A stretch of DNA of 50,089 bases from a bacterium (lineage in GTDB: Bacteria; Hydrothermota; 32-111), in NCBI GenBank assembly GCA_050239825.1, contig JBFXGO010000012.1, positions 1-50,089 on the forward strand, read 5' to 3'. Numbering within the stretch: the first letter of the stretch is position 1; the number at the start of each line of letters is the position of its first letter. Made by a program: the position numbers. Shown here piece by piece: positions 15,001 to 24,000 of this stretch.

Positions 15001-18000
15001 TGATTCTTGAAAGTGACATCAGTCTCAGCAGTGTATCCGGCTCCCAAAAGAATTGAAGAGAGAAAAATCACAAAGAAAAAGAGTCTATTCATAGGAATAC
15101 TCCATTTTATCAAAATTATCGAGAGAGGTATTGATTATCTTCTCAATTGAAAACATATCTATAGGGTAATTTGAATAGTATGTTATCTGATTGTTGTTTC
15201 TGACTATCTTCTGATATTCAATATCATCAATCCTTGAAATAAAGATAATTTTCGATTTAGGGCTGAATTGGTTTATCGAGTTTATTATTTTCTGCTCATT
15301 GAACAGAGGAAGCTCCACAGAGTCGATTATAACCATTGCAAATTTGTTTAACATTGTGGAGGTTATAAGAGATATATAGTTGTCAAAAAATTGCGTCTCT
15401 TTATACCTATCCTTAAATTTCTGTCTTATTTGCTGATCATTGCTCAATAAACTTATTCTTTTCTTCATAGCTATATTATATGCAATTTTTGTGCCATAGT
15501 CAATACTTATTTAAGTTGATATATGTAATCACTTAACAAGCTGGGATTTATTTGATTTCTTTAAAAAGTGTGGCATTTGTTGACAAATTGCCACACTATT
15601 TTTCATCAATGTCATACTTTTCCAGTTTTCTGTATAGTGTTTTCCTGTCAATTCCAAGGATTCTTGCCGCCTTTGCCTTATTTCCATTAACTTTGGCAAG
15701 AGTTTTTTTAATATGATCCAACTCCACATCATCAAGAGAGAATGATTTCTTGATTTTACCCTCTTCAAATCTGATAATATTGATTGGAAGGTTGTCAATA
15801 TAAATTCCCTTACCATCGGATAGTATGATTGCCCGTTCAAGTATATTCTCAAGCTCTCTGATGTTGCCCGGCCAATTGTATCTGTCAAAAAGGTGCAGTA
15901 CGGAAGGGTCTATGTGAAATTCTTCGGAATTTACATTTCGTTTTTTTAGCAATGATTCTATCAGAAGAGGAATATCTTCAATCCTCTCCCTTAAATCGGG
16001 CAATTCTATTTTCAGGGTCTCAAGTCTGTAGTAAAGATCCTCCCTCAGCTTTCCTTCAGAAATCATCTGATGGAGGTTTTTATTAGTGGCGGCTATTATC
16101 CTCGTATCCACAGTGATATCTGTTACTCCGCCGAGACGCCTGAATTTCTTGTCTTCAATTATATGAAGTATCTTCGCCTGACTCTTAAGCGGAAGCTCTG
16201 CAATCTCATTCAAAAATATAGTCCCCTTATTTGCAACTTCAAAGAGTCCGTATTTTCTGTTCATTGCGCCGGTAAATGCTCCTTTCTCATAACCGAAAAG
16301 TTCGCTCTCTATCAGTGTCTCCGGCAGTGAAGCGCAATTCTGCATGATGAATATCTCATCTTTTCTGTTTGATTTAGAGTGAATGTGCTTCGCAAAAGTG
16401 TCTTTTCCGGTGCCCGTGTTGCCGATAATCAGGACTGGGAGGTCGCTTGCCGCGTATTTGTTCGCAATCTCTATTATTTTTTTGATTTTCTTCGACTTTG
16501 TTGTTATATGGGAATCTTCGTTCACAATAGGTTTGATTTTTTCATAAACATCTGCAATGTTTATTGTCTTCTCCATCTTCATGAGGAGGTTTGAAAGGTC
16601 CTCTATTCTGAATGGTTTAGGGAGAAAGTAAGAACCAGTCTTTATGGCGGTTTTGGAATAATCAATCTCTCCATAAGCAGTCATGATAATTATTTCGCTC
16701 TTGGGAGAATTCTCTTTGACTTTATCTACAAGTGAGAATCCGTTCATGTCAGGCAGATGAATATCCAAAAAGCATATATCTACATCTGTCTCCTTAAGAA
16801 TGCTCATAGCTTTGCTTCCGGTGAAGGCCTGATATATCTGATAACCGAATGTCGATAACGCCTCTTTCAGGGTCTCTGAAAAACTCGGTTCATCATCAAT
16901 AATTAAAACATTGATTTTCCTACTCATATTAGAATATATCTTATGCAATAAATGAGAGCTTGTCAAGAGACCTGTAGGTTGTTTTGCCACACACACTTTT
17001 AACATCTTTTTTGTTTGAAAAGTTTTTCACTCCGCTCTTTCTCCTCTTGACAAAAGTAACTTAATGTATAATATATTTCAGATGATAAAAACAACAGGTA
17101 TAATTATAGAGAAGAAGAATGAACTCTTCAAAATTAAAATAGATGAAGCATCTTGTTCTTCCTGCGGAAACCACAATGAATGTTCTCTGGCAAAAATACC
17201 CAACAGCCGCATAATTGAAGTTCCTCTGATTGAAGGAGTGAACGTAGGAGATAAGGTGGAGCTTGACATAGAACAGGGAAAGGTATTGTTTTTATCCGTT
17301 CTTTTTTATCTGGTTCCTTCCATTCTGATACTTCTTTTCTCCCTTGCCGGATATTTCATTTTCAAATCCGAATTCTGGGCGGCGATTCTCGGATTGGCCG
17401 GAGTCGCATGCGGATTCATAGTTATATTCATAATTGAAAAAAAGAAAAAAAACAGTTTCAAACACAAAATAAAGAGGGTGTTATATGATTAAAGAGATTC
17501 TCACTGCTGTGGCGGTCCTCGGCTCTTTGTCGATACTGCTCGGCATAGCGATTCTCATCACGATGAAGGTCTTTGAAGTGAAGAGAGATCCTGCAGTTGA
17601 TGAGATGATGTCGGTTCTGCCGGGAGTCAACTGCGGAGCTTGCGGTTTCGCAGGATGCGAACAGTTCGCCGTCGCAATGGCTAAAAAGGGCGAATTGTAC
17701 AAAATATGTCCTGTTGGAAAGGATGCTGTTTCAACAAAGATACAGGATATTTTAAAGAAGCACAAAGGCGAGGTGAAGAATGGCTGAAAAATTGACTTTC
17801 CGAAAGGGAGGCATACATCCGGACGAGAGAAAGCTCTTGTCTGAAAATGCTCCGATAAAAAGAATGGATGCTCCTGAAATATTGTACTTGTCTGTCAATC
17901 AGCACCTCGGCTCTCCGATAAAGCCGATTGTGAAGGCAGGCGACAGGGTCACAAAAAATCAGGTCATTGCCGAGGGAGAGGGAATTGTGACTTCAAAGGT

Positions 18001-21000: not shown

Positions 21001-24000
21001 ATTGTTGTGAACTGCATTGTTTTCGGAAGAGCTGAAGCATTTGCTTCAAAGAATGGAATTATGGACTCTCTCTGGGACGGAATAGGAATGGGGCTCGGCT
21101 TCACTTTTACCATCACAGTCCTTTCATCTGTCAGAGAAATACTCGGAAATGGCACATGGATGGGCATAGAACTCTTCGGCAAATCATACTCTCCCGCGAT
21201 TGTTGCAATACTTCCTCCGGGAGCGTTTATGACTCTTGGTGTGATGCTTGCAGGAATGAATAAAATAAACATGAACATGGAAGCAAAGAGGAAGGCAAAA
21301 GAGAAACTCGAGAAAGAGAGAGCAAAACAATTAAAAGAGAGTGTGGCAAATGGTTAAATTGATAATACTGGCAATAGACTCAATGCTCATTTCAAACATA
21401 GTTTTGATGAGATTCTTGGGTATATGCCCATACATCGGAGTTTCAAAAAAACAGGAGACTGCCGCCGGAATGGGTTTTGCGGTCATATTTGTGATGGTTA
21501 TGGCGACATTGATTTCATTCTTCATTCAAAAGGGGATACTTGATCCTCTTAATCTCGGCTATCTTCAGACAATAGTATTCATACTTGTAATAGCCTCTCT
21601 CGTGCAGATGCTTGAAGTAATGCTCAAAAAAATAGCTCCGTCCCTTTTTGATGCGCTTGGCATATATCTACCGCTCATAACAACAAACTGCACTATTCTT
21701 GGAGTTGCAATTTTGACAATACAGAAAAATTTCAATTTTATTGAAGCTCTTGTATTCTCCTTTTCAACAGGCATAGGATATCTCATCGCCATTTATTTAT
21801 TCGCCGGAATAAGAGAGCGTCTTGAATGGTCTGACATTCCAAAGCCCTTTCAGGGAGCCTCAATAGGAATAATCACAGCAGGGCTTCTCTCTCTGGCATT
21901 TTTCGGCTTCACTGGACTCGTCAAACTATGAGAATAAAAAGAATTGTAATAGTATTTCTTATCCTGATTATTTTGTCCTCCTGCGCCATTGAAAACAGGC
22001 GCAGGAAAACATTTTTGGCGATGGGAAATATTCCGATAGAAGTGACTCTATATACAAAGGATAATCTTGATTTTGAAAAGACATTTGATGAAATTGAAAG
22101 TGAGATTAAGCGCCTTGATTCACTCTTTTCAAAGCACAATCCGATGTCGGAAGTCTCTCTTTTCAACAACTCGGCAAAGGGAATTCAGGCGTCTGAGGAC
22201 ATAATAACTCTTGTTATTCTCTCAGACTCAATGAAGAGAAAAACAAAAGGATATTTTGACATTGAAATAGAGACACTGCTTTCATACTATAAGAGATGCG
22301 AAGACAAGCAGAGCGACCTGTCAGACGACTCCATTCTCCTTTATACGGGAGCGATTTTGAAGGATTCGGTTTACATCAAGAATGATTCCATTCTGAAGAG
22401 TGATCCTGTTATCAAAATTGATTTTGGAGGAATCGCAAAAGGATATTTCGGGGATGCGATTGTGGCGATAATGAAGAAGAATCTTTTTAAGAAGGGAATC
22501 GCCAATCTCGGAGGAGATATTTCGGTTGTAAACGATGCGGATGATGATTTCTTCAAGGTTGGTATAAGAAGCGCGGCTGGAGACTCCGTGGCAAAGGTGG
22601 ATTCCATTCAAAACGGAGCAATCGTAACAAGCGGCGATTACTTCAGGTTCTACGAAATAAAAAACAAAAAATACTGCCATATAATAAATCCGAAAACCGG
22701 TTATCAGGCTGACAATATTCATTCCGTCACGGTTAAAGCCCTGACGGGATTTGAAGCAGACGCATTTGCCACTGCGGTTATGCTGATGGACAGTTTCGAG
22801 CTGGATGATTTCAAAGAAAAAAACAAAGAAGTATCAATCTATATTCAGAAATAGTATAAGGAGTTACAAAATGTCACACACAATAATAATCGGAGGCGGA
22901 ATAATCGGAGGTTCAATCCTCTATAATCTTTACGAGAACGGATACACAGGAAAAACCACTGTTCTCGAGAGAAAGTCCCAGCTTTCGCAGGAATCGACAT
23001 CACTATCCGCAGGCGGATTCAGGAACATCTGGTCAACCAAGGTAAATCTACAACTGACAAATTACTCGATTGAAGCATTTAAGAGGTTCAAGGAAGAGCT
23101 TGGAGAAAACATAGGTTTTGAGCAGGTGGGGTATCTTTTTACTTATTATGAGAAAGAGTTTGAGGCGATAAAGAACTTCAAGCCCGTCCTTGATCAGAAC
23201 AAAGTCAGAACCGAACTTCTGAAACCCGAGGATATCAAAAAGTATGTGCCGGGATTTATCCCCACAATCGACCACATAAGCAAAGAAGAAAATGAGGTTC
23301 TGAACATGAAGGAGATAGCGGGCGGTCTCTTCGGACCCGACTGCGGAATGTTCAATCCCACTTCCGCTTCAAACAGGTACTTTGAGTACACCAAAGAAAA
23401 GCATCAGAGTAAGATAGACATAAAATTGAACTCAGAAGTAAAGAAGATTCTCTTTAAAGGAAACAAAACAATAGGAGTTGAACTTTCTGACAATACGATT
23501 ATTGAAGGCGACATAGTCATACTCGCTGCAGGAGCATTTTCCGGAGACCTTATAAAAAAATCTACAAGCAATGAGGATTTTTATATTCCTGTGGTTCCCT
23601 GGAAGAGAATGCTTTTCACAGTGAAGATGCCTCCCATTGAGGGCTTTGAGAAAGTTCCGATGACAATAATAGACAACGGAGTCTATTTTCACCCTGAAAA
23701 AAGCAATCTGCTTGTAGGTAGGGCCGACCCTCTTCAGCCTTTCGGTTATGATTACAAACCGGAACCGACCTATTACGAAGAGCAGATGAACTACTACATG
23801 TCCGCAAGAATTCCCGGAATGGACCATTGCAGAATCATCTCAAATCAGTCGATGTGGGGAGGATTATACGAGCATAACACTGAGGACAAGAACGGAATAA
23901 TCGGATTCCATTCAGACCTGCAGAATCTCTTCATAGCGACGGGATTCAGCGGTCATGGCGTTATGGAATCGCCGGGTATAGGAATTTCTGTCGCAGAAAT

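What a model noticed while it worked through the whole genome (the two positions that open the first line are those of the whole stretch)
17082..22854. Rnf complex with a 100-aa RnfB that has lost its whole ferredoxin input domain, fixed in family 32-111
RnfB (g00799) consists only of the membrane anchor and the single flexible [4Fe-4S] domain; the C-terminal 2-7-cluster domain that accepts electrons from ferredoxin in all characterised Rnf complexes is gone and is not encoded separately. The gene has also moved to the front of the operon (rseC-rnfB-C-D-G-E-A-apbE), overlapping rnfC.
Evidence so far: ORF 98-100 aa with all four cysteines in 14 of 14 family genomes, 274-281 aa and placed after rnfA in 4 of 4 sister-family genomes with a match. 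tblastn with the sister C-terminal domains finds only generic ferredoxin motifs in other genes. The 10 near-length homologues in the 5.8-billion set are all 100 aa and 61-100% identical. Review states the C-terminal domain has two to seven clusters and is the ferredoxin acceptor (PMC12174285, passages); search for truncated RnfB gave 0 papers.
(Added by a program. Inside this text positions count along the whole contig: contig position 1 is position 1 of the stretch shown here. "Call 12" and the like, gene names such as g00115 and contig names such as C1 are that model's own, and its searches are not shown. The text may have been shortened before it was handed on; [...] marks where a part breaks off. 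The agent that wrote the report below was given it as the finding of a first reader that could run no searches.)

Follow-up and report, generated by a model that had tools for sequence, protein, structure and literature searches.

The report
One-cluster RnfB, known Thermotoga type
This bacterium's sodium-pumping Rnf respiratory complex has a very short ferredoxin-accepting subunit with a single iron-sulfur cluster, a design already shown to work in Thermotoga maritima and found in several other bacterial groups, so it is real but ordinary.

Summary
RnfB (17485-17787) is an intact 100-aa, 10.59 kDa protein: membrane helix plus one four-Cys Fe-S domain. It is short in 14 of 14 family genomes, and the RnfB-specific C-terminal segment was found in 0 of 14. 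The novelty claim fails. Thermotoga maritima RnfB is 10.56 kDa with one predicted cluster, and its purified complex oxidises ferredoxin and pumps Na+ (PMC7414866); PMC9588780 says it is the FdI domain only. Same-sized RnfBs occur in Thermotogota, Spirochaetota and Bacillota. The order rseC-rnfB-C-D-G-E-A is the known Bacteroidota type. Most likely a soluble ferredoxin (best candidate: a conserved 60-aa acidic one-cluster ferredoxin) docks directly on the mobile cluster; this is inferred, not assayed. One new point: the RnfC/D/E/A tree rejects grouping this operon with the sister family's (AU p 3e-8) and sets it apart with Thermotogota-like and Bacteroidales operons. Operon replacement is therefore likelier than truncation and shuffling in place. 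The scan met this RnfB type before on another genome (e1-748103). Verdict: new member of a known kind, low interest.

The parts
17047..17074 (+). sigma70-like promoter candidate (TTGACA-16-TAATAT); weak
   Evidence: 10 of 12 matches; 5 sites found against 2.0 +/- 1.2 in shuffles; consensus match only
17064..17492 (+). rseC (start at 17064 or 17082); C-x2-C-x5-C motif and a hydrophobic C-terminal half
   Evidence: PF04246 E 4e-23; three Cys invariant in 25 of 25 aligned RseC
17485..17787 (+). minimal RnfB: helix 2-29 (membrane anchor) plus FdI/B8 [4Fe-4S] domain, Cys50/53/58/75
   Evidence: model pLDDT 88; top structural match 9eri_B Z 7.4, rmsd 4.1, 91 aligned, next Z 4.9
17780..19099 (+). rnfC, 439 aa, two [4Fe-4S] motifs, NAD/FMN domain
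   Evidence: TIGR01945 508 bits, cut-off 246
19101..20075 (+). rnfD; Asn and Asp matching the A. woodii riboflavin ligands N123 and D249; Thr in VTCAT (FMN site, role recalled)
   Evidence: TIGR01946; alignment to 9eri_D; residue roles from PMC11889175 passages
20078..20695 (+). rnfG; FMN-bearing Thr kept (TAATITS)
   Evidence: TIGR01947; alignment to 9eri_G
20692..21357 (+). rnfE; both [2Fe-2S] Cys kept
   Evidence: TIGR01948; alignment to 9eri_E
21341..21931 (+). rnfA; both [2Fe-2S] Cys kept
   Evidence: TIGR01943; alignment to 9eri_A
21928..22854 (+). apbE flavin transferase
   Evidence: PF02424 E 1.5e-56
22877..24100 (+). FAD-dependent DAO-family oxidoreductase right after apbE; probably syntenic only
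   Evidence: PF01266; best PDB hit 1y56_B E 1e-31; just downstream of the operon in 12 of 14 family genomes

Best explanation
A working ferredoxin:NAD+ oxidoreductase, probably Na+-pumping, with a T. maritima-type minimal RnfB. SHOWN: all six subunits, ApbE and the cofactor ligands I checked are intact; RnfB keeps the membrane helix and the mobile FdI/B8 cluster; no polyferredoxin part is encoded elsewhere. INFERRED: (1) pyruvate, ketoisovalerate, 2-oxoglutarate and indolepyruvate oxidoreductases reduce a soluble ferredoxin, most likely the 60-aa acidic one-cluster protein at G000:C53:13081-13263; (2) it docks directly on the exposed B8 domain, which in long RnfBs is fed by the fused Fe-S wire; (3) B8 swings to the RnfA/E [2Fe-2S] cluster, and electrons pass through RnfG-FMN, RnfD and RnfC to NAD+ while Na+ is expelled; (4) a Na+-type V/A ATP synthase uses the gradient, and the NADH-dependent [FeFe] hydrogenase balances NADH and ferredoxin. 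The reverse direction is equally open. The operon was probably acquired or retained as a block from a lineage nearer Thermotogota and Bacteroidales than the sister family.
For: Precedent: T. maritima RnfB is 10.56 kDa with one predicted cluster; its purified complex, reported to contain all subunits, is active with C. pasteurianum ferredoxin and pumps 22Na+ (PMC7414866 sections 6, 10, 11; RnfB row in Suppl. Table 3). [quoted passage not shown] The window protein is 10,594 Da and aligns end to end with Thermotogota RnfBs of 91-104 aa with all four Cys. B8 (residues 30-100) is the part that inserts between RnfA/E (PMC11889175 passages). Ligands kept. Fixed in 14 of 14 family genomes at 52-90% identity with invariant Cys, so not decaying. 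Four 2-oxoacid:ferredoxin oxidoreductases and a group A6 hydrogenase in the genome. The 60-aa ferredoxin has net charge -13, occurs in 14 of 14 family genomes at 73-97% identity, and its best PDB hit is 1rof/1vjw (that this is the T. maritima ferredoxin is recalled). The ATP synthase K subunit keeps T64, Q65, Y68, Q110, E139 of the E. hirae Na+ site (residues from PMC10382590 passage). A Lys/Arg four residues after the last Cys occurs in 13 of 13 family, 19 of 37 other short, 0 of 32 other WOR-3 long and 10 of 79 other long domains (post hoc, kin not independent, 8 long rows not matched by the pattern).
Against: No activity, expression or docking was tested for this family. I did not retrieve T. 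maritima's own RnfB sequence; the comparison rests on two papers and on other Thermotogota. Kuhns et al. note that the one-cluster count 'remains to be established'. The 60-aa ferredoxin is also in 4 of 5 sister genomes with long RnfB, so it is not a special partner, and other small ferredoxins exist. Net charge of the whole FdI domain is no more basic in the family (-2.5, n=13) than in long RnfBs (-2.55, n=119); only the stretch after the third Cys shifts. The donor lineage is unresolved: family + Thermotogota-like has only 77/54 support.
Confidence: 0.82

Rival explanations
1. RseC, whose gene overlaps rnfB, is an Fe-S membrane partner that replaces the missing domain as a relay to B8.
For: rseC overlaps or abuts rnfB in 14 of 14 family loci; three invariant Cys; in E. 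coli RseC acts with Rsx to reduce SoxR (PMC12174285 passage).
Against: rseC also flanks long rnfB genes in Bacteroidales, other WOR-3, Melioribacter and Marinimicrobia loci. In T. maritima it is not beside the rnf genes (PMC9124969 passage), yet that purified complex works. In C. ljungdahlii it is read as a regulator.
Confidence: 0.07
2. The FAD oxidoreductase behind apbE (proline/sarcosine dehydrogenase beta-like) feeds electrons to, or takes them from, the exposed B8 cluster in place of ferredoxin.
For: Just downstream of the operon in 12 of 14 family genomes, 64-87% identical; best PDB hit 1y56_B.
Against: Orthologues occur in 65 of 272 WOR-3 genomes, most with long RnfB and away from rnfB: about 75 kb in G250, 140 kb in G249, other contigs elsewhere. 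It carries no ferredoxin motif. Amine dehydrogenations are generally too oxidising to reduce a ferredoxin-level cluster (own knowledge).
Confidence: 0.04
3. One reading: the ancestral WOR-3 rnfCDGEAB operon lost the RnfB C-terminus and moved rnfB to the front within this family.
For: All other complete WOR-3 RnfBs listed are long, and length changes do occur within clades: 97-aa forms sit beside T. primitia's 272-aa form (100/100*), a 98-aa beside a 287-aa form (98/99*).
Against: AU tests reject family + sister family (p 2.5e-5 LG+G; 2.7e-8 mixture model), family + the f2/f5/f10 clade (p 5e-4; 1.9e-3) and family + f8/f21 (p 8e-5). A 97/97* branch separates family, Thermotogota-like and Bacteroidales rows from 14 others, including all 5 other WOR-3 rows. 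The gene order already exists in Bacteroidota.
Confidence: 0.1
4. The complex is degenerate or the short ORF is an assembly artefact.
For: The C-terminal domain that contacts RnfC in solved structures is missing.
Against: Same stop position in 14 of 14 independent assemblies from five genera, invariant Cys, all other subunits intact with ligands.
Confidence: 0.02

Closest known systems
Thermotoga maritima Rnf complex with 10.56 kDa one-cluster RnfB (Kuhns et al. 2020, PMC7414866; Vitt et al. 2022, PMC9588780)
   Same: RnfB size (10.59 vs 10.56 kDa) and content (anchor plus FdI cluster only); six-subunit Rnf in a fermenter with ferredoxin-linked oxidoreductases, an NADH-dependent [FeFe] hydrogenase and a Na+-type ATP synthase.
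   Different: Gene order rseC-B-C-D-G-E-A-apbE against rnfCDGEAB with rseC elsewhere; V/A-type rather than F-type ATP synthase; RnfB N-terminal identity to nine named Thermotogota proteins only 34-49%; no biochemistry here.
Bacteroidota/Chlorobi rnfBCDGEA operon (PMC4014512; Parabacteroides distasonis record)
   Same: Identical order rseC-rnfB-C-D-G-E-A; highest mean RnfA identity of the groups compared, 57%; same side of the 97/97* branch.
   Different: Bacteroidales RnfB is 267-310 aa in the five loci seen; apbE is not next in the annotated record.
A. woodii, C. tetanomorphum and A. vinelandii Rnf (9eri, 7zc6, 8ahx)
   Same: Core subunits, cofactor ligands, RnfB residues 1-95.
   Different: Their RnfB (333, 274, 174 aa) adds 2-7 clusters, taken there as the ferredoxin docking site and the contact to RnfC.
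Short RnfBs of Spirochaetota, Bacilli, Tissierellales and other Bacillota
   Same: 91-131 aa, PF04060 only, stop-bounded; Brevinematia-like ones are the closest by RnfB identity, mean 45.7%.
   Different: Mostly last in rnfCDGEAB; the Brevinematia-like gene stands apart from the other rnf genes.

Membership tests
Rnf complex (RnfABCDEG) | All six subunits present in one cluster | tested here: met
   TIGR01943-01948 all at or above cut-off; RnfB 70.3 bits against 68.7
Rnf complex (RnfABCDEG) | RnfA/E [2Fe-2S] Cys, RnfG FMN-Thr, RnfD riboflavin Asn/Asp, RnfC two [4Fe-4S] | tested here: met
   residue roles from PMC11889175 passages
Rnf complex (RnfABCDEG) | Not Nqr (no NqrF; RnfC keeps its cofactor domains) | tested here: met
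   Rnf models outscore Nqr models for C, D, G, E and A; RnfC has FMN-domain and Fer4 hits; no NqrF-like gene in the operon
Rnf complex (RnfABCDEG) | Ferredoxin:NAD+ activity coupled to Na+ or H+ transport | not testable with these tools
   Needs biochemistry; Na+ is inferred from the K-subunit motif
T. maritima-type minimal RnfB | About 10.5 kDa; membrane helix plus FdI domain with CxxCxxxxCx16C and nothing after | tested here: met
   10,594 Da, Cys 50/53/58/75; PF04060 only; end-to-end alignment with Thermotogota RnfBs
T. maritima-type minimal RnfB | No separate C-terminal polyferredoxin in the genome | tested here: met
   0 of 14 family genomes, 85-100% complete, against 4 of 5 sister genomes
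T. maritima-type minimal RnfB | Direct sequence comparison with T. maritima RnfB itself | tested here: inconclusive
   Not returned by name; other Thermotogota used instead
T. maritima-type minimal RnfB | Common descent with the Thermotogota operon | tested here: inconclusive
   77/54; AU p 0.55, not rejected, not shown
Polyferredoxin-type RnfB (A. woodii, C. tetanomorphum, E. coli) | C-terminal domain with 2-7 [4Fe-4S] clusters | tested here: not met
   Stop after residue 100; no CxxCxxCxxxC motif
Bacteroidota-type rnfBCDGEA operon | Order (rseC)-rnfB-C-D-G-E-A | tested here: met
   full order also in 4 of 4 family operons fetched whole

The most novel reading that the evidence does not exclude
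The minimal RnfB of this family is not simply open to any ferredoxin: it takes electrons from a dedicated partner encoded in the same unit (the three-Cys membrane protein RseC whose gene overlaps rnfB, or the FAD dehydrogenase behind apbE), which would make a seven-part Rnf with a swapped input module, as NqrF replaced RnfB in Nqr. A milder novelty with better support (about 0.4): one-cluster RnfBs arose repeatedly and often converged on a basic residue beside the last Cys as a ferredoxin docking patch.
Probability: 0.1. Interest if true: 0.6.

Novelty: new member of a known kind. Interest (0 to 1): 0.2.

Why it matters
It does not overturn the Rnf model, because a one-cluster RnfB was shown to work in 2020. 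Its value is modest. It shows that the T. maritima design is no oddity: it is fixed in a WOR-3 family and recurs in Spirochaetota and Bacillota. That supports the view that the mobile FdI/B8 domain is the only indispensable part of RnfB and the Fe-S wire an optional antenna. No solved structure found here has a minimal RnfB (one search returns 333, 274 and 174 aa chains), so how ferredoxin meets B8 directly is still open, and natural minimal forms make it testable. The operon's position apart from other WOR-3 Rnfs is a small evolutionary note.

Tried and rejected
Frameshift or split gene: rejected; same stop in 14 of 14, no C-terminal segment elsewhere. Other short WOR-3 RnfBs: G263, G230, G233 are contig-end cuts. 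RseC as specific compensation: it also flanks long rnfB. One-cluster ferredoxin as a partner specific to short RnfB: also in the sister family. Whole-domain charge shift: none in the family. A special basic RnfC tail as substitute hook: tails are basic with long RnfB too, +4 to +10 across 20 loci. DAO-family neighbour as dedicated donor: unlinked in other families. First fold (14 sequences, pLDDT 69) gave no Foldseek match under E 0.001, top rows being the CFeSP Fe-S domain; the 60-sequence model was used instead. The representative-library search and plasmid search added little beyond variants and the Parabacteroides record. T. maritima's own RnfB was not retrieved. Literature searches. None of their listings showed a cross-phylum survey of short RnfB or a report for this family; the WOR-3 genome paper PMC12542636 has no 'RnfB' in its main text (its supplements not read). 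Subscription papers are mostly not in the library.
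Full report
OBSERVATION. The window holds rseC (17064/17082-17492), rnfB (17485-17787), rnfC, D, G, E, A and apbE, head to tail on the + strand. RnfB is 100 aa, 10,594 Da, with Cys at 50, 53, 58 and 75. Pfam finds only PF04060. It matches residues 1-95 of A. woodii RnfB (E 2e-14). A model from 60 sequences (pLDDT 88) shows a long N-terminal helix and a small helical domain; its best match among 48,161 chains is 9eri_B, Z 7.4, rmsd 4.1, 91 aligned, next Z 4.9. 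All 14 family genomes have a stop-bounded 98-100 aa ORF between rseC and rnfC. The sister family has 274-281 aa forms after rnfA in 4 of 5 genomes. Across 272 phylum genomes (199 with a match; 59 weaker matches not listed), the only other frames under 150 aa run off contig ends. The segment that starts the C-terminal domain of long RnfBs was found in 0 of 14 family and 4 of 5 sister genomes; in the own genome the best profile hit was E 0.057 against 137 control hits in fetched loci.

PRIOR ART. Kuhns et al. 2020 (PMC7414866; sections 6, 10, 11 read, passages, one supplement search) state that T. maritima RnfB is only 10.56 kDa with one predicted 4Fe-4S centre. They asked whether such a complex accepts ferredoxin, found that it does, purified it with all subunits and showed primary Na+ transport in liposomes. 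They add that the cluster count remains to be established. Vitt et al. 2022 (PMC9588780, passages) write that the shortened T. maritima RnfB consists only of the FdI domain. Two earlier notes of this scan name the same precedent; I had read the paper before seeing them.

HOW COMMON. An alignment search returned 339 proteins of 53-175 aa (best 120 listed; many are fragments), among them named RnfBs of Thermosipho (91-93 aa), Thermotoga sp. (94), Pseudothermotoga (95), Tissierellales (91), Brevinematia (93), Oscillospiraceae (99) and Margulisbacteria (113). Of 80 genome loci, 4 carry a short RnfB, three of them in complete rnfCDGEAB operons. In 401 Spirochaetota genomes (263 with a match; 176 weaker matches not listed), 35 genomes show frames of 146 aa or less, one at a contig edge; I confirmed stop-bounded ORFs in the 26 whose DNA I read. 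The listing favours short forms because the query was short. In 251 Bacillota genomes, 124 matched and 3 were short, one being the centre genome. A metagenome contig carrying the Thermotoga sp. protein reads C-D-G-E-A-B(94).

GENE ORDER. rnfBCDGEA is the published Chlorobi/Bacteroidetes order (PMC4014512, passages). An annotated Parabacteroides record shows rseC-rnfB-C-D-G-E-A exactly. rseC also flanks long rnfB genes in several phyla, so it is not tied to the short form.

ORIGIN. I built trees from RnfC, D, E and A only (1,125 columns; RnfB left out). 105 loci had all four, one duplicate was dropped; FastTree used 104, IQ-TREE 49, 25 and 26 of them. The sister family's operon sits in a starred clade with two other WOR-3 families, without this family. 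AU tests reject family + sister (p 2.5e-5; 2.7e-8 under the mixture model), family + that clade (5e-4; 1.9e-3) and family + f8/f21 (8e-5). Under the mixture model a 97/97* branch separates this family, four Thermotogota-like and four Bacteroidales rows from 14 others; family + Thermotogota-like is 77/54. Neither pairing is rejected or shown, and both groups were chosen after seeing the first tree. Only one of the Thermotogota-like rows carries a named protein; the others are labelled by 54-69% RnfB identity to it. The trees are unrooted, so no donor is named. Short and long RnfBs are also neighbours in two starred clades, so length has changed more than once. Identities outside the family are flat (RnfC 41-42%; best non-family hits 43-49%), which fits an old event.

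MECHANISM. Shown: cofactor ligands in RnfA, E, D, G and C are kept. The genome encodes four 2-oxoacid:ferredoxin oxidoreductases, an NADH-dependent group A6 [FeFe] hydrogenase and an Mrp-linked membrane oxidoreductase (55 of 89 ORFs from nine selected regions scanned), and a K subunit with the E. hirae Na+ ligands. A 60-aa one-cluster ferredoxin, net charge -13, is in 14 of 14 family genomes at 73-97% identity, and in 4 of 5 sister genomes. From PMC11889175 (passages), the B8 domain, residues 30-100, is what inserts between RnfA/E and hands the electron to the membrane [2Fe-2S] cluster. Inferred: with no fused wire, soluble ferredoxin reduces B8 directly, as must happen in T. maritima, and the rest of the path is canonical. 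A Lys/Arg four residues after the last Cys (Lys79) is in 13 of 13 family, 19 of 37 other short, 0 of 32 WOR-3 long and 10 of 79 other long domains. This is post hoc, kin are not independent, and whole-domain charge does not differ in the family, so it is a lead only.

RIVALS. RseC as relay (0.07) and the downstream FAD oxidoreductase as partner (0.04) are not excluded but lack specificity. In-place truncation from the sister type (0.1) is disfavoured by the trees. Decay or artefact (0.02) is refuted by conservation. Binding between RnfB and any partner was not modelled.

VERDICT. Real, a member of the Rnf family, and of the T. maritima minimal-RnfB kind by every sequence feature I could test. 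Activity is untested, T. maritima's own sequence was not in hand, and supplements of the papers other than PMC7414866 were not read (Suppl. Fig. 5b of PMC9588780 compares RnfB sizes and may list more short forms). New member of a known kind; interest 0.2.

Noticed in passing
window 22877-24523 (+): DAO-family FAD oxidoreductase (best PDB hit 1y56_B) and an unannotated 134-aa ORF follow apbE; the oxidoreductase lies just behind the operon in 12 of 14 family genomes, orthologues in 65 of 272 WOR-3 genomes.
   Followed up: partly
L166, L168, L171, L173 (Spirochaetota G401, G394, G487, G457); L165 (G443): Operons apbE-D-G-E-A-B(short) with an RnfD of 418-576 aa (in L166 with an extra RnfG-like C-terminal part) and no rnfC in the fetched stretch; L165 shows neither rnfC nor rnfD there. 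Possibly Rnf without the NAD module; rest of those genomes not searched.
   Followed up: no
L155-L160, L224-L228 (G429, G512, G342, G292, G331, G492): Brevinematia-like short rnfB stands alone, away from rnf(C)DGEA; in G292 it is duplicated in tandem; in G429 and G342 rnfC is not next to rnfD.
   Followed up: partly
L065:4873-6006 (Fusobacterium sp. oral taxon 370): 377-aa RnfB with PF04060 followed by three helical repeats and no Fer4 domain: another RnfB without the polyferredoxin part.
   Followed up: partly
P0131, P0132, P0133, P0134: RnfB variants with two PF04060 domains; P0132-P0134 have no Fer4 domain.
   Followed up: no
L189, L190, L193: RnfB of 685-719 aa with a long C-terminal extension that looks like an FAD/NAD(P) oxidoreductase domain (by eye, not scanned), beside a divergent RnfC of about 20% identity.
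   Followed up: no
G000:C21 (L216) and G000:C66 (L215): Mrp-linked membrane oxidoreductase with a PRK13984-like Fe-S/flavoprotein subunit; hydrogenase cluster with two NuoE/NuoF pairs, a group A6 HydA and a PF04060-bearing sensory-type hydrogenase.
   Followed up: partly
window 11308-17005 (-): Divergent from the rnf operon: a sigma54-type response regulator and a run of secreted or pilus-chaperone-like ORFs (read from sequence only); the regulator is next to rseC in 7 of the 14 family loci, and three others have a peptidase-like gene there.
   Followed up: no
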